A stretch of 13,180 bases of DNA from a virus. Lineage: Duplodnaviria > Heunggongvirae > Uroviricota > Caudoviricetes. This document shows, in pieces, positions 3,751 to 12,018 of the stretch (its first letter is position 1; the number at the start of each line of letters is the position of its first letter). The notes beneath the pieces were generated by a model. The model had not been told where the DNA came from and did not search any database. It saw only the letters and a program-made list of their open reading frames with translations. The stretch is taken from IMG/VR virus record IMGVR_UViG_3300032074_000001. The stretch is one strand, 5' to 3'. A program made the translations under genes and the position numbers.

Positions 3751-4995
3751 ATGGCGTTGCCGTCAGGCGAGAGCCTGCTCATCTCAGCACTGATCAACGT
3801 AGGAAACGTCGAAGAGGCGCTCACCTACGGCATCACCCCGAACTACTTCCGGGGGTACAAGGACGAGTACAACTGGCTGCTGAACTACACCAAGACCTAC
3901 GGTGAGCAGCCCACCCGAGACATCTTCCGGGCACAGTTCTCCTCCTTCCCCATCTCCGAGCACGCCGACGTGCGCAGCGCCTGTGACATGGTGCTGAAGT
4001 CGTACGGCAAGGCACGGCTCACCGAGGCCATGGGCGAGGCCGTGGACCTGATGGGCATGGGCGATCTCCAAGCCGCCTACGCCACACTCACCAAGGCCGA
4101 GCCCCGGTCCACCGCTCCCAAGGCGAAGCGGCTGCTCACCGACCTGACCTTCTTCGACACCTGGGAGGACGACCACCAGGGCGTCGAGGTGCCCTACCGG
4201 GTGATCCAGAAGAACACCGGAGGCATCAAGCCTGGCAACCTCTGGTACCTCGCGGCCCGTCCCGGCAACGGCAAGACGGCCCACCTGTGCAACATCGCGA
4301 CCCGCGCTGTCCTTGATGGAGCGCGGGTCAAGTTTTACTCCCTGGAGATGAGCGAGATGGAGGTCCGGGCGAGGTTCCACGCCGCGCTGGCCACCCACTT
4401 CAAGGTCCCTGGGATCACCATGAACTCGATCCGTGAGCGGACCGTGGACATGTACGAGTACAAGCAGTTCATCTCGGAGTTGGACGAGCGCCTGGACGGC
4501 CACCTCGACATCCACACCCCGCGTGACGGCATCGTGACGCCGGGAACGGTGGCCTCGGTCGCGGAGGACTACCACCTGAACATCGTGGACTACATCGGTC
4601 TGATGCGGTCCGAGGACGGCACCCCCGCGATCAAGGACTGGCGGGTGGCCGCAGAGATCTCCAACCGGATGAAGGAGATCGGGCTAGCGGCCCACACCGG
4701 GATGCTGTGCGCCGCTCAGATCAACCGGGAGGGCGACAGCGGCACTGCCCCGCCCAAGATCTCCCAGCTGTCTCAGAGCGACGCTCTGGCCCAGGACGGG
4801 GACGTGGTGATCACCATGCGAGCCGCGCCCCACAACGTGGCCACCTACCTGTCGCTGGAGAAGAACCGGCACGGCCAGTCCTCCATCCTCACCGCCACCA
4901 CGTTCGACCCGAACACCGGAATCTACCGAACCATCGATCTCACCGAGGTCGATGCCCTTGCCCTAGAAGCCGAGGCCCGTCGCTATGAGCAGTGA
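3751..4995 (+). CDS. dnaB: DnaB-like (SF4) replicative helicase
   Basis: Walker A AARPGNGKT, SLEM, Walker B IVDY, AQINRE, LAQDGD, KNRHG Arg-finger motif. Confidence 0.95.
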   Translation: MALPSGESLLISALINVGNVEEALTYGITPNYFRGYKDEYNWLLNYTKTYGEQPTRDIFRAQFSSFPISEHADVRSACDMVLKSYGKARLTEAMGEAVDLMGMGDLQAAYATLTKAEPRSTAPKAKRLLTDLTFFDTWEDDHQGVEVPYRVIQKNTGGIKPGNLWYLAARPGNGKTAHLCNIATRAVLDGARVKFYSLEMSEMEVRARFHAALATHFKVPGITMNSIRERTVDMYEYKQFISELDERLDGHLDIHTPRDGIVTPGTVASVAEDYHLNIVDYIGLMRSEDGTPAIKDWRVAAEISNRMKEIGLAAHTGMLCAAQINREGDSGTAPPKISQLSQSDALAQDGDVVITMRAAPHNVATYLSLEKNRHGQSSILTATTFDPNTGIYRTIDLTEVDALALEAEARRYEQ

Positions 4996-5262: not shown

Positions 5263-5387
5263 ACCTCTTCCACGAGTTCGGCGCGTGGCTCTTCTTCCAC
5301 GATGTACACATCACCCCGTTCGGGATCGCTGGGTTGTTCTGCCTGTTCTCACTCCTCGACAACTTGATCGAACGGGTGAAGCGGTGA
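5259..5387 (+). CDS. Small membrane protein (42 aa)
   Basis: GTGA coupling on both sides; hydrophobic ITPFGIAGLFCLFSLL. Confidence 0.7.
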   Translation: MNLFHEFGAWLFFHDVHITPFGIAGLFCLFSLLDNLIERVKR

Positions 5388-6322
5388 ACTACGCACACAC
5401 GCTGTCCGAGGCGATCACCAAGGGCCACGGCACCGAGCGCACCTTCCTGTGTCCGGTACACGGCGACAGCCGTCCGTCCGCGAGCCTCAACATCATCAAG
5501 CAGAAGTGGGTCTGCTACACCTGCGGCGCTCACGGTGGTCTCACCGGGGAGGACGCCCTGATGGAGCCCGACTACCTCCAGATGAAGCTGTGGTTCACCG
5601 AGAAGCTGGAGGAGAAGCGTGTCTACCCCGAAGCCTGGCTCGCCCGCTGGGACGCAGGACCCGTCCACCCTTACTGGACCGCTCGTGTTGGAGACGATGC
5701 GGCGCGTCACTTCCGCCTTGGTGCTGACCCAGCAGCAGATGCGGTCACTTATCCCCTACGTCGAACGGATGGGGCAGTCCTGGGAGTCGTTCGCCGCCGC
5801 CTACAACCTGATGGTGGTCCCAAGTACCTCTATCCCAAGGGCATCGACGTGGGGCGGCTTCTCTTTAACTACAGCCCTGTACGACGAACTGCCGTCGTTC
5901 TCGTGGAGGGAGCCCTGGACGCCATCGCCCTATGGAACGTCGGAGTGGAAGCGTTCGCGATCTACGGTTCTCGACTTGGTGCGGAGCAGGTGCGCCTCAT
6001 CGACCGGATCGACCCCGACTACGTGTTCACCGCGTTCGACAACGATGACGCTGGCTACCGCGCTCACCGAGACGTGGAGCAGGCCATGCGGCACCGGCTC
6101 GTGTCCCGCATCACCTGGCCCGCTTCCTGGGGCAAGGACGTGGACGAGATCGGACCGGCACGCCTGAAAAATGTTGTGCATGACGTACTTGCGCTGACCA
6201 ACAGTGCATGTATAGAGTCTCCGTCATGCAGATCGCACGAAACATCGACAGCGAAGAGCAAGAAGCCCTCCTCCGTTACGTCCACGCGAAGCGGGATGCG
6301 GATCAAGCGATCCGCCGCGTAG
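5384..6322 (+). CDS. dnaG: DNA primase (CHC2 zinc finger + TOPRIM)
   Basis: CPVHGDSRPS...WVCYTCG zinc finger; PKY; TOPRIM VLVEGALD and AFDNDDAG; GTG 5384 coupled to upstream TGA. Confidence 0.93.
   Translation: MNYAHTLSEAITKGHGTERTFLCPVHGDSRPSASLNIIKQKWVCYTCGAHGGLTGEDALMEPDYLQMKLWFTEKLEEKRVYPEAWLARWDAGPVHPYWTARVGDDAARHFRLGADPAADAVTYPLRRTDGAVLGVVRRRLQPDGGPKYLYPKGIDVGRLLFNYSPVRRTAVVLVEGALDAIALWNVGVEAFAIYGSRLGAEQVRLIDRIDPDYVFTAFDNDDAGYRAHRDVEQAMRHRLVSRITWPASWGKDVDEIGPARLKNVVHDVLALTNSACIESPSCRSHETSTAKSKKPSSVTSTRSGMRIKRSAA
5619..6167 (+). CDS. Putative overprinted ORF in the +1 frame of primase (182 aa)
   Basis: SD GGAGG 6 nt before GTG 5619; 28/46 primase codons at 5681-5818 end in A/T versus 7/77 before the ORF start. 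Confidence 0.55.
   Translation: MSTPKPGSPAGTQDPSTLTGPLVLETMRRVTSALVLTQQQMRSLIPYVERMGQSWESFAAAYNLMVVPSTSIPRASTWGGFSLTTALYDELPSFSWREPWTPSPYGTSEWKRSRSTVLDLVRSRCASSTGSTPTTCSPRSTTMTLATALTETWSRPCGTGSCPASPGPLPGARTWTRSDRHA
6189..6218 (+). promoter_or_regulatory. Promoter inside primase 3' end, driving a leaderless mRNA
   Basis: TTGCGC-N18-TAGAGT, 7 nt before ATG 6226; no SD. Confidence 0.6.
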
Positions 6323-8098: not shown

Positions 8099-8171
8099 TG
8101 GGACGTAGCTCAGCTGGCAGAGCGCCCGACTGTTAATCGGGTGGTCGCAGGTTCGAATCCTGCCGTCTCAG
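8099..8171 (+). tRNA. tRNA-Asn (GTT), CCA not encoded
   Basis: Acceptor TGGGACG/CGTCTCA, D arm, anticodon arm CCCGA-CTGTTAA-TCGGG, T loop GGTTCGAATCC, discriminator G. Confidence 0.96.
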
Positions 8172-8173
8172 CG

Positions 8174-8252: not shown

Positions 8253-10949
8253 ATGCAGATCGTACGGACGCCGAAGCGGCGGATGCAGATCCAGCGGACG
8301 CCTCGCTGGTGGTCTCTCCACACGCACTCGCGGTACTCCAACAACGACGCGCTCCCGGCTGTGTCTGACATCGTGGCGAAGGCCGCAGCCTTGGGCCAGA
8401 AGGCTGTAGGTCTCACCGACCATGGCAACATGGCCGGGAGCGTGGAGCTGTACCAGGCGTGCAAGAAGCATGGTCTGGCCCCCTTCCCTGGGTCAGAGAT
8501 GTACTTCGTGCCCGACATCTCGCAGCACAAGAAGGACTACGCCGACAAGAACAAGAAGGCGTCCAGGTTCCACCTGGGCGTGGTCGCGTACTCCACCGAG
8601 GGCTACGAGAACCTGGTGCGGCTGTCCACGGTGAGCCACCAGCAGCACTTCCACAAGCCGCTGGTGGACTTCACAACCCTGGCTCAGTTGGCGGACGATG
8701 GTCGGACCAAGGGTCTGGCGATCACCACCGGGTGCTACTTCGGCTACGCGGTGCAGACCCTCGTCAACGAGGGGGATGAGGCAGTTGAGCGCTACCTCGC
8801 CACGCTGGAGTCATGGTTCCCCGAGTCGGTCTACGTCGAGATTCAGAACCATCACATCGATCACGATGATCACTGGTGCGATGATCTCGTTGCCGATCAA
8901 CTTGTGGATGTTGCGGATCGCATGGGACTTCCTGTGGTCATCACGCAGGATTCGCACTACCTAGAGCCTGAGGACAAGAGTGACCACGAGGCCCTCAAAC
9001 GACTCGTCGCCTTCGGACCCGAAGCAGACGATGCAGTCTTCCCCGGTGATGGCTTTCAGTTCGGAACTGAGGACTGGATCAGAGACCATCACCGTGACCA
9101 TCGGCTTGCGCGAGGACTGGAAGGACTGGACCATCTCCTCGCTCGCCATGAACTCCGAATCCCGGTCCTTGACTCTTACTCTTACGCGGTCCCCGCAGTC
9201 GTAGCCAGCCCGCAGCAGGCCATGGAGGATCGCTGTCGGCAGGCGCTGGCGGCGAAGGATCTCTACACGCCCAAGTACATCGACAAGCTGACCGAGGAGT
9301 TCGACACCATCAAGGCGTCGGACATGGCTGGCTACATGATGCTGGTGGCCATGGTGACCGACTGGCTCACCGAGGAGGGCGTGCCGTTCCAGACCCGTGG
9401 CTCTGCCGCTGGCTCCCTGGTGTGCTGGCTGTTGGGGATCACCCAGGTGGACCCGATCAAGTGGGACCTGCGCTTCGACCGGTTCTTGTCCAAGGACCGC
9501 ACCAAGCCCCCGGACATCGACCTGGACATCGCCCACGACCGGCGTCAGGAGCTGATCGACATGCTCGACACCCGGTTCTCGGCGCACCAGATCGGCTCCT
9601 GGGCCACCTACGGCATGGACAACGACGAGGGTGAGGACAAGGGCTCGCTGCTGAAGCGGTACTTCAGCCGCAACAAGCACCGGGAGAACCCCATCGAGAA
9701 GTGGGAGGACATCCCCGAGGCCGACCGCAAGATGCTCTACCGGCTCTCGGACCGGAACCTGTTCTCCGGGATGGGCACCAACGCGGCGGGCGTGGTGATC
9801 ACCAGCACCAAGGAGGAGTTCGACCGACTGGTCCCGCTGGCCTACATGAACCGTGGCGGCTTCGTCACCCAGTACTCCAAGGACGACATCGAGGCACTGG
9901 GCCTGGTGAAGCTGGACGTGCTGGGGTCCAAGACCCTGACCGTGCTGCGCCGCACCATGGACAACCTGGACCTGCCGGTCTCGGCGCTGCTGGAGATCCC
10001 GCTGGGGGACAGACCCACCTTCTCCTTCATGCGCAAGGGCGACACCGCTGGCATCTTCCAGCTGGAGGGCTACACCTCGGCCAAGGGTGTGAAGCGGCTG
10101 CGTCCGAGCAGCATCAAGGACGTGATCGCAGCCATGGCGCTGTTCCGCCCCGGCGCGATGATCAGCGGAGGCACCGACGCCTTCATCCGCCGCAAGCACC
10201 GGGAGGAGCAGGTGCCCGAGCGACACGCCTTGGTCTCTCGGGTCACCGCCTCTACCTACGGGGTGATGCTGTACCAGGAGCAGGTTATCGACATCCTGCG
10301 TGGCCTGGGCATGGACGCCGACAACCTCACCAAGTTCCTGAAGGCAGTCAAGGCGTCGAACAAGAACATCGGAGCAGCCGCCGAGGTGATCGCCTCCTAC
10401 AAGGGCTGGATCGATGACAAGACCACCGAGATGGGGATGAGCGATGAGGACAAGAGGTTCTTGGACGAGTCGATCCAGGGGTTCAGCGAGTACGGCTTCA
10501 ACCGGGCGCACGCGACGGTTTACGGTCTTACTGCTTACCGCTGTGCTTGGCTGGCTGTTCACCACGGCGTTGAGTTCCACGCTGCTCTTCTTGCTGTGGC
10601 GGCGGGCGATCCAAAGAAGGAACCCGGCTACGTTACGGCTACTCGTAGGCGAGGGATCAAGATCAGCCGAGCCGACATCAACGTCAGCGGAGCCACCTAC
10701 ACCGTTGATCGGCGCACTGCGAGCATCCGGCGCGGTCTCCAGTCTCTTGACGGAATCGGAGAGACGGTTGCTGCCGCCGTGGTGGGAGCAAGAGCGGACC
10801 GACCGTTCGCAGATGTCGCAGATCTGGTGCGACGAGTACCTGCGCGACCTGTGAGCGGCGGCAAGAACTACGCCAAGGAGGGCCTCGACGGGCTCACCGG
10901 GGTGCTGCGCAAGCTGTACGAACAGCACGCACTGGACTCGATCCTGTGA
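8253..10949 (+). CDS. dnaE: DNA polymerase III alpha subunit (DnaE-like), compact, PHP intact
   Basis: PHP HTH..D, TDHG, GSE, FHL, TTGC, QDSH; RGSAAGS; PDIDLD; KLDVLG; GIFQLE; YQEQ; YGFNRAH; HhH GLQSLDGIG. Confidence 0.97.
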   Translation: MQIVRTPKRRMQIQRTPRWWSLHTHSRYSNNDALPAVSDIVAKAAALGQKAVGLTDHGNMAGSVELYQACKKHGLAPFPGSEMYFVPDISQHKKDYADKNKKASRFHLGVVAYSTEGYENLVRLSTVSHQQHFHKPLVDFTTLAQLADDGRTKGLAITTGCYFGYAVQTLVNEGDEAVERYLATLESWFPESVYVEIQNHHIDHDDHWCDDLVADQLVDVADRMGLPVVITQDSHYLEPEDKSDHEALKRLVAFGPEADDAVFPGDGFQFGTEDWIRDHHRDHRLARGLEGLDHLLARHELRIPVLDSYSYAVPAVVASPQQAMEDRCRQALAAKDLYTPKYIDKLTEEFDTIKASDMAGYMMLVAMVTDWLTEEGVPFQTRGSAAGSLVCWLLGITQVDPIKWDLRFDRFLSKDRTKPPDIDLDIAHDRRQELIDMLDTRFSAHQIGSWATYGMDNDEGEDKGSLLKRYFSRNKHRENPIEKWEDIPEADRKMLYRLSDRNLFSGMGTNAAGVVITSTKEEFDRLVPLAYMNRGGFVTQYSKDDIEALGLVKLDVLGSKTLTVLRRTMDNLDLPVSALLEIPLGDRPTFSFMRKGDTAGIFQLEGYTSAKGVKRLRPSSIKDVIAAMALFRPGAMISGGTDAFIRRKHREEQVPERHALVSRVTASTYGVMLYQEQVIDILRGLGMDADNLTKFLKAVKASNKNIGAAAEVIASYKGWIDDKTTEMGMSDEDKRFLDESIQGFSEYGFNRAHATVYGLTAYRCAWLAVHHGVEFHAALLAVAAGDPKKEPGYVTATRRRGIKISRADINVSGATYTVDRRTASIRRGLQSLDGIGETVAAAVVGARADRPFADVADLVRRVPARPVSGGKNYAKEGLDGLTGVLRKLYEQHALDSIL
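8698..8964 (+). CDS. Putative overprinted single-TM protein in +1 frame of dnaE (88 aa; alternative start ATG 8776)
   Basis: 17/32 dnaE codons at 8841-8936 end in A/T; +1 frame reads ITSITMITGAMISLPINLWMLRIAWDFLW-SSRR. Confidence 0.55.
   Translation: MVGPRVWRSPPGATSATRCRPSSTRGMRQLSATSPRWSHGSPSRSTSRFRTITSITMITGAMISLPINLWMLRIAWDFLWSSRRIRTT
8980..9204 (+). CDS. Putative overprinted soluble protein in +1 frame of dnaE (74 aa)
   Basis: SD GAGGA 5 nt before GTG 8980; 31/74 dnaE codons at 8982-9203 end in A/T; stop made by rare GTA codon. Confidence 0.5.
   Translation: MTTRPSNDSSPSDPKQTMQSSPVMAFSSELRTGSETITVTIGLREDWKDWTISSLAMNSESRSLTLTLTRSPQS
10444..10854 (+). CDS. Putative overprinted single-TM protein in +1 frame of dnaE (136 aa)
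   Basis: 15/26 dnaE codons at 10518-10595 end in T, giving RR-FTVLLLTAVLGWLFTTALSSTLLFLLW-RR; codon bias reverts right after the TGA. Confidence 0.65.
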   Translation: MRTRGSWTSRSRGSASTASTGRTRRFTVLLLTAVLGWLFTTALSSTLLFLLWRRAIQRRNPATLRLLVGEGSRSAEPTSTSAEPPTPLIGALRASGAVSSLLTESERRLLPPWWEQERTDRSQMSQIWCDEYLRDL

Positions 10950-11317
10950 GCGTCCGCGATCAGGTGGTTGCCCGTGCCTGGGGTCGGTGCGAGTGCATGA
11001 TTCGTATCGGTGGACGGTGGACGCGCTGCTGGCGCAAGCCCATCGAGATCCACCACATGCTCACAAGAGCACGGGGAGGTCTGATCTTGGATGCAGCGGG
11101 GGAGACCGCTCACCTGATCGCCCTGTGTCCCGGACACCACAGAGTGGCTCACTCTCCCAACGGCCACCGGGCAGGACTGATGATGAATGGCTATGTCACC
11201 ACAGGAGAGGACGGCCTTCCTGTATACGCGGGGTCGGACCCAAGGCTCGCCGGACACATCCGAACCATGGACGTGCCAATGCTGCCGCCTCACCTATCCG
11301 GTGACTCATCTAGCTAG
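10946..11317 (+). CDS. HNH endonuclease family protein
   Basis: RCEC...C...EIHH..R.RGG....HLIALCPGHHRVAH pattern; GTGA-coupled to dnaE. Confidence 0.85.
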   Translation: MSVRDQVVARAWGRCECMIRIGGRWTRCWRKPIEIHHMLTRARGGLILDAAGETAHLIALCPGHHRVAHSPNGHRAGLMMNGYVTTGEDGLPVYAGSDPRLAGHIRTMDVPMLPPHLSGDSSS

Positions 11318-11631: not shown

Positions 11632-11640
11632 GAGAGACGC

Positions 11641-12018
11641 ATGTGGGACAAGCGAGCACAGGTCGTGGAGGTACACGACGGTGACACCATCACGGTGATC
11701 CTCGACCAAGGCTTCGATGAGACCAAGAAGATCAAGCTGCGCCTGTTCGGGGTGTTCGCCCCGGAACTTAAGGATGAAGGTGGCCAGGCGTGTCGTGAGT
11801 TCCTGACCACCTGGCTGGCTACCCACGACGATCTCCGGGGCTCCTGGCCGTTCGTGGTCACCACGGCCCGCACGCCGATCTCAGACACCGAGCAGCAGAC
11901 GCTCGGGCGGTACGTCGGCACGCTCACCAGCAGGGATGGCACCTCCAACCTGAACGTGGACATAGCCAACTTCATCCAGGTCCAGGGATACGGCCACGGC
12001 ACCGGCTGGAAGTCCTAG
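11641..12018 (+). CDS. SNase/thermonuclease-family nuclease
   Basis: VHDGDT, RLFGVFAPE, LGRYVG motifs; SD GGAG. Confidence 0.88.
   Translation: MWDKRAQVVEVHDGDTITVILDQGFDETKKIKLRLFGVFAPELKDEGGQACREFLTTWLATHDDLRGSWPFVVTTARTPISDTEQQTLGRYVGTLTSRDGTSNLNVDIANFIQVQGYGHGTGWKS

What the first reader, a model, noticed from the sequence alone, without database searches (positions are those of the whole stretch)
5619..6167. Overprinted ORF inside the primase catalytic core
Seen: GGAGG-N6-GTG start. Primase wobble A/T use rises from 7/77 codons (zinc finger, before the start) to 28/46 at 5681-5818, where the +1 frame reads like a helical protein (LVLETMRRVTSALVLTQQQMRSLIPYVERMGQSWESFAAAYNLMVVP). The bias fades after about 5990, so the C-terminal third may be an unconstrained tail. 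Caveat: the SD could be a by-product of Leu-Glu-Glu codons.
Basis: partly seen in the sequence, partly recalled or inferred. Interest (0 to 1): 0.7.

Follow-up and report, generated by a model that had tools for sequence, protein, structure and literature searches.

The report
Hidden gene inside phage primase gene
Inside the DNA-primase gene of an uncultured phage, a second small gene in another reading frame keeps its own ribosome-binding site and start codon across a dozen related phages, so one stretch of DNA probably codes for two proteins and standard annotation misses the second.

Summary
Observation confirmed: +1 ORF 5619-6167, GGAGG-N6-GTG, wobble A/T 28/46 versus about 8/79 upstream. 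In the window's clade (about 310-aa primases) the start-making codons CGT-GTC are kept in 15/15 loci (background CGT 17%). The site is the strongest Shine-Dalgarno match of the 16 starts scored in the window. The frame stays open for at least 75 codons in 10 of 11 lineages (1 stop versus 11.8 expected), and the A/T step starts at this codon. Some 30 gene-caller products from other assemblies share the start. The conserved gene is about 75 aa, not 182: several lineages stop at 75-94 aa. Against: the closest relative has a stop at codon 24 (restart ATG follows), a sister clade lacks this start, synonymous divergence is not reduced, and dN/dS gave no signal. The product is a predicted helix (residues 15-66) without homologues; a clean coiled-coil pattern appears in only about one third of lineages. 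Probably a translated overprinted gene (0.75), function unproven. Precedent: T7 genes 4.1/4.2 inside gene 4. The scan noted this ORF and two dnaE-nested ORFs in this genome, and similar nested genes in other genomes.

The parts
5384..6322 (+). DnaG-type phage primase (mother frame, 312 aa): CHC2 zinc finger, catalytic region with Toprim, and a C-terminal extension overlapping the next gene
   Evidence: Pfam Zn_ribbon_DnaG and Toprim_2; 120 homologues listed
5608..5612 (+). Shine-Dalgarno GGAGG of the nested ORF (primase codons 75-77)
   Evidence: -9.3 kcal/mol, strongest of the 16 starts scored in the window and the same score in 11/11 clade lineages; primase residue 78 (the spacer) is variable while its flanks are conserved
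5619..5621 (+). GTG start of the +1 ORF, made by primase codons CGT-GTC (R79-V80)
   Evidence: CGT GTC in 15/15 clade loci; the only A/T-ending codon shared by 11/11 lineages in codons 1-280, background CGT 17%; residues start-compatible in 42/44 long-form versus 7/76 short-form primases
5619..6167 (+). Overprinted +1 ORF, 182 aa in this genome
   Evidence: gene-caller products of 75-223 aa, 27 of 31 starting at the same position
5619..5843 (+). Conserved core of the nested gene, 75 codons, up to the earliest recurrent stop in relatives
   Evidence: 1 stop versus 11.8 +/- 3.3 expected in 11 lineages; stops at primase codons 154-156 in L073, L006/L060, L061, L058
5679..5816 (+). Amphipathic helix or coiled-coil segment of the nested protein (residues about 21-66)
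   Evidence: AF2 single helix 15-66, pLDDT about 80 for residues 21-60; heptad amplitude z = 3.4 in 11 lineages; not replicated on average in 28 further products, 8/28 coiled-coil-like
5697..5699 (+). Possible secondary ATG of the nested ORF (weak SD); L026 has an ATG one codon earlier, right after its premature TAG
5844..6167 (+). Optional Ser/Thr-rich tail of the nested ORF, over the Toprim domain; absent in about 40% of lineages but still stop-poor
   Evidence: 9 stops versus 23.4 +/- 4.3 expected for primase codons 154-240; product lengths

Best explanation
A de novo gene overprinted in the +1 frame of the primase gene. Shown by comparison: a strong SD, a GTG start, a frame open for at least 75 codons, and a switch of primase wobble bases from G/C to A/T that starts at this codon. 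Inferred: ribosomes initiate internally on the helicase-primase mRNA and make a 75-180-aa protein with a flexible N-terminal 20 aa, a roughly 45-aa amphipathic helix and an optional Ser/Thr-rich tail. The wobble shift is what supplies Leu/Glu/Gln/Met/Ile; G/C wobbles would give only Ser/Thr/Pro/Ala/Arg/Gly/Trp/Cys. Most likely mechanism (inferred, about 0.4 given translation): a non-enzymatic, fast-evolving helical binder made during replication that acts on a host protein (takeover or counter-defence), in some lineages as a coiled coil. A replisome adaptor is less likely (about 0.2). The target is not identified.
For: Start codon pair CGT-GTC in 15/15 clade loci, background 17%. Best conserved out-of-frame SD+start in the module, 13/13, in a scan that also recovers the true starts 6226 and 6629. 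Protein footprint: M/L75 42/44, E76 39/44, residue 78 variable, R/H79 42/44, V80 43/44; the R-to-H variants can supply ATG. +1 stops 1 vs 11.8 in codons 79-153, no depletion in +2 or in codons 5-78, nor in helicase or non-patch dnaE. The A/T step sits at codon 79 in this clade but near codon 100 in the sister clade that lacks this start. About 30 gene-caller products from other assemblies, 27 of 31 with the same start. Helix prediction; clean heptads in P0124-P0127 and P0129; 5/11 DNA lineages coiled-coil-like versus about 0.5 expected. Outgroups and cultured Gordonia/Brevibacterium phage primases have this frame broken, as expected for de novo origin.
Against: Closest relative L026/L043 (82% identity) has TAG at ORF codon 24 in two assemblies. 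The sister clade lacks the start but keeps a weaker A/T patch. No reduced synonymous divergence in the patch (excess identity 0.05-0.14 versus 0.08-0.15 outside); the close pair L006/L060 shows no dip either. OLGenie-like dNN/dNS = 1.9 [0.8-4.6], no purifying signal. Heptad periodicity not replicated on average in 28 independent products (0.047 versus null 0.065), and the register was chosen after looking. Lineages are related, so shuffling z-scores overstate independence; gene-caller products are biased toward open frames. No expression data.
Confidence: 0.75

Rival explanations
1. Translation matters but the peptide does not: the strong internal SD loads ribosomes mid-primase to damp primase synthesis, or to keep the mRNA covered against Rho or RNases up to the next promoter.
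For: Start signals are far better conserved than the product (38% mean column identity); length varies 75-223 aa; no dN/dS signal; the internal SD is stronger than primase's own (-9.3 versus -6.8).
Against: It does not explain why primase wobbles shift from 18% to 43% A/T across the whole core, which changes the +1 amino acids, nor the clean heptads in several lineages.
Confidence: 0.1
2. The motif around 5608-5626 and the A/T patch form a DNA or RNA element (protein-binding site, origin, slow-codon region), and the open +1 frame is a by-product.
For: The patch persists in the sister clade where this ORF is broken; the closest relative has an early stop; rare-codon use in dnaG genes is known (own knowledge).
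Against: Stop depletion is specific to +1 among five alternative frames. The patch folds no better than shuffles (z +1.15); no Rfam hit there; no promoter or terminator match. The conserved letters are those of an SD, a free spacer and a start codon. Both dnaE patches show the same +1-specific depletion.
Confidence: 0.12
3. Chance ORF in a recombined low-GC3 segment, with the SD a by-product of Leu-Glu-Glu.
For: For this genome alone P(open) is 0.014-0.018, not extreme given the many frames in a genome.
Against: The patch is at the same place in all 29 relatives compared; identities inside and outside the patch correlate (rho 0.69) with overlapping nearest neighbours; start and SD are conserved across the clade.
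Confidence: 0.03

Closest known systems
Phage T7 genes 4.1 and 4.2, nested in the +1 frame of primase/helicase gene 4
   Same: Small same-strand ORFs in the +1 frame of a phage primase gene: 4.1 at 11635-11757 and 4.2 at 12988-13326 against 4A at 11565-13265 (GenBank V01146; frames computed).
   Different: No sequence similarity to gp4.1. T7 4.1 is 40 aa, lies over the N-terminal part of 4A and ends at the 4B start; this ORF is 75-182 aa and lies over the linker and catalytic region of a stand-alone DnaG-type primase of an unrelated phage family.
phiX174 gene E in gene D; lambda Rz1 in Rz (overprinted or nested phage genes)
   Same: Same-strand +1 nested gene with its own ribosome-binding site and a codon-usage anomaly in the mother gene (own knowledge; overprinting concept reviewed in PMC8227390).
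   Different: Those products are membrane or lysis proteins; this product reads as a soluble helix with no evident transmembrane or lipoprotein signal (by inspection), and the host gene is an essential replication enzyme.

Membership tests
Overprinted (de novo) nested gene | Open alternative frame conserved beyond chance in relatives | tested here: met
   1 versus 11.8 +/- 3.3 stops, open in 10/11 lineages; one exception, L026/L043
Overprinted (de novo) nested gene | Own conserved initiation signal | tested here: met
   SD plus GTG in 13/13 to 15/15 loci; protein footprint 42/44 versus 7/76
Overprinted (de novo) nested gene | Narrower distribution than the ancestral frame, no stand-alone homologue | tested here: met
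   Frame broken in outgroups and cultured phages; no convincing hit in Pfam, PHROGs, PDB or phage records; the profile hits read as +1 products of related primases, apart from one weak repeat-protein match
Overprinted (de novo) nested gene | Reduced synonymous divergence in the mother frame, or purifying selection on the new frame | tested here: inconclusive
   No excess wobble identity; dNN/dNS confidence interval 0.8-4.6 with near-saturated pairs; composition shift and stop depletion are present
Overprinted (de novo) nested gene | Demonstrated translation or phenotype | not testable with these tools
T7 gp4.1 / gp4.2 | Sequence homology to gp4.1 | tested here: not met
   No alignment at E <= 100; gp4.2 not compared directly, but no PHROG or phage-record hit
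Coiled-coil protein | Heptad repeat of apolar residues over a continuous helix | tested here: inconclusive
   Met in the window (a/d 0.77 apolar, one Pro) and in about 13 of 39 sequences; not met clade-wide

The most novel reading that the evidence does not exclude
This phage family carries a hidden layer of +1 genes in its core replication enzymes (one in primase, two in dnaE). The primase one would be a de novo coiled-coil effector seen at several stages of its history: clean heptads in some lineages, degenerate in others, and shifted to a later start in the derived sister clade. It would be a functional new protein written over the catalytic region of an essential enzyme.
Probability: 0.3. 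Interest if true: 0.75.

Novelty: new member of a known kind. Interest (0 to 1): 0.55.

Why it matters
Well-supported nested genes in double-stranded DNA phages are few, and most sit in linkers or lysis cassettes. This one overlaps the folded catalytic region of a primase, has no detectable homologue, and is dropped by gene callers whenever the primase is called. With about 40 divergent versions in hand, it is a usable natural series for studying how a new helical protein arises and decays under the constraint of an essential enzyme, and it points to unannotated accessory genes in phage replication modules.

Tried and rejected
Other frames (+2 and three antisense): not stop-depleted, rejected. 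RNA structure, Rfam, promoter and terminator scans of the patch: nothing. Amber suppression of the internal TAG stops: only tRNA-Asn in the window and no suppressor called in related loci. Recombined segment: rejected. tblastn of the ORF in IMG/VR and phage records: no relative. No prophage primase relatives in GTDB genomes with the patterns used. ESM Atlas best hits 0.86 (SP15_N, 149 shared features) and 0.83: under the 0.9 mark, not used. Weak Pfam and PHROG hits were scattered, mostly generic coiled coils. Homodimer prediction gave no verdict. Fold search not run, since a single helix gives meaningless matches. Literature searches found no report of this ORF and no functional paper on T7 4.1 in the held library. 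DNA could not be fetched for P0003, P0006, P0008 and P0046.

Full report
Context. The window is the replication module of an uncultured, high-GC tailed phage (40.6-kb contig; related contigs reach about 80 kb): DnaB-like helicase 3751-4995, primase 5384-6322, a probable SSB, tRNA-Asn and DnaE 8253-10949. The nearest cultured primases are from Gordonia and Brevibacterium phages at about 32% identity, so an actinobacterial host is an inference.

Observation. The +1 ORF 5619-6167, the GGAGG-N6-GTG start and the wobble counts are as reported. On its own the open frame has P of about 0.015 under synonymous shuffling.

Relatives. I collected about 40 primase loci. The tree has L004 at the base, a grade of long (about 310-aa) primases that includes the window, and a well-supported derived clade of short (275-aa) primases. 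The A/T-rich wobble patch sits at the same place in all 29 family members compared, and identities inside and outside it correlate (rho 0.69). It is therefore not a recently recombined segment.

Start signal. All 15 long-form loci that have R79-V80 write it CGT GTC, which gives the +1 GTG. CGT is 17% of Arg codons outside the patch, and codon 79 is the only A/T-ending codon shared by all 11 independent lineages. The SD scores -9.3 kcal/mol in all 11 and is stronger than any annotated start scored in the window. A scan of all genes of the module for conserved out-of-frame starts recovers the true starts at 6226 and 6629 and ranks 5619 first. Among 44 long-form proteins, residues 75-77 and 79-80 are conserved while residue 78, the spacer, is variable; residues 79-80 can form a start in 42/44, against 7/76 short-form proteins.

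Open frame. In the 11 lineages, primase codons 79-153 hold 1 stop in +1 against 11.8 +/- 3.3 expected; the +2 frame and codons 5-78 behave as expected. Wobble A/T steps up at codon 79 in this group (0.18 to 0.39-0.45) but near codon 100 in the short clade, which lacks this start. ORF lengths from this start are 75, 75, 76, 77, 91, 163, 174, 178, 179 and 182 aa, plus 23 aa in L026/L043, where an ATG two codons after the TAG opens 139 codons. A profile search of 1.84 billion proteins returned 33 hits. Nearly all read as gene-caller products of this same frame in other assemblies; 27 of 31 begin at the same position, with lengths of 75-77, 94-99, 126 and 163-223 aa. That set is biased toward open frames. 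The conserved gene is thus about 75 codons (5619-5843); the rest is optional, though still stop-poor (9 versus 23).

Product. No convincing Pfam, PHROG, PDB, Atlas or phage-record match. AF2 gives one helix, residues 15-66. Heptad amplitude exceeds the shuffled null in the 11 DNA lineages (z 3.4; best control z 2.6), five products show six clean heptads, and 5/11 lineages including the window are coiled-coil-like against about 0.5 expected. The signal did not replicate on average in 28 further products (8/28 coiled-coil-like), and the register was chosen after inspection. A coiled coil therefore describes about a third of lineages; for the rest, only a helix-favouring composition can be claimed.

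Negative results. Synonymous identity is not raised in the patch, and overlap-aware dN/dS shows no purifying signal, with wide intervals on near-saturated pairs. The closest relative is interrupted at ORF codon 24. The short clade keeps a weaker patch, a GTG at primase codon 103 in 13/21 loci and some stop depletion (6 versus 21.6), but its products are Pro-rich and 28-126 aa long; this may be a shortened or decaying version. All shuffling statistics treat related lineages as independent and overstate significance. No expression data were available.

Mechanism. Shown: conserved SD, start, open frame and composition shift. Inferred: internal initiation on the helicase-primase transcript gives a small non-enzymatic helical protein. 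Its fast divergence (38% column identity, against 64% for the primases) fits a binder of a host target better than a fixed replisome part, but no target was identified. Rivals are translation for its own sake (0.10), a DNA or RNA element (0.12) and chance (0.03).

Comparison. T7 genes 4.1 and 4.2 lie in the +1 frame of primase/helicase gene 4, so the arrangement has a precedent; there is no homology to gp4.1. The same +1-specific stop depletion marks both A/T patches of dnaE (1 versus 29 and 6 versus 24 stops), which earlier scan notes also describe.

Verdict. Probably a real overprinted gene (0.75) of about 75 conserved codons, a new member of a known kind with a product of no known family; interest 0.55.

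Noticed in passing
window 8860-9204 (+1 frame of dnaE codons about 203-316): The +1 frame is stop-free in 21/22 relatives (1 versus 29 stops expected), with a conserved end at codon 316/317 and a conserved REEWKDW-like stretch; the window is the one genome with an internal TAG (8962-8964).
   Followed up: partly
window 10444-10854 (+1 frame of dnaE codons 731-867): Second dnaE patch with +1 stop depletion (6 versus 24; open in 15/17 loci); the window product has a transmembrane-like segment, which is much less evident in the short-primase clade.
   Followed up: partly
window 6189-6226: Conserved rare codons at the primase end (CTT 9/11, TGT 10/11, ATA 10/11) spell TTGCGC-N16/18-TATAGAGT a few bases before the ATG at 6226, whose SD is weak: probably a promoter for a leaderless mRNA (inference; below the scan threshold).
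   Followed up: partly
window 6226-6322: Long-form primases run 97 nt into the next gene with a Ser/Lys/Arg-rich tail; short-form primases stop before it.
   Followed up: partly
L007, L029, L036 and other short-primase loci, at the position of window 5684-5695: A conserved rare-codon motif CGA GTA GGT GAG gives +1 TAG followed directly by GTG (13/21 loci); possibly a later start of a shortened nested ORF.
   Followed up: partly
protein P0148: A gene-caller product that begins as the +1 ORF and continues as primase Toprim sequence: a frameshift in that assembly or lineage, not resolved.
   Followed up: no
window 10946-11317: The gene after dnaE has raised wobble A/T only in the window's close relatives, with conserved +1 ATG/GTG at 11187 and 11193 opening about 60-75 codons: a possible further overlap.
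   Followed up: no
window 8099-8172: tRNA-Asn(GTT) between the SSB-like gene and dnaE; L006 has tRNA-Tyr at a similar position, most relatives none.
   Followed up: no
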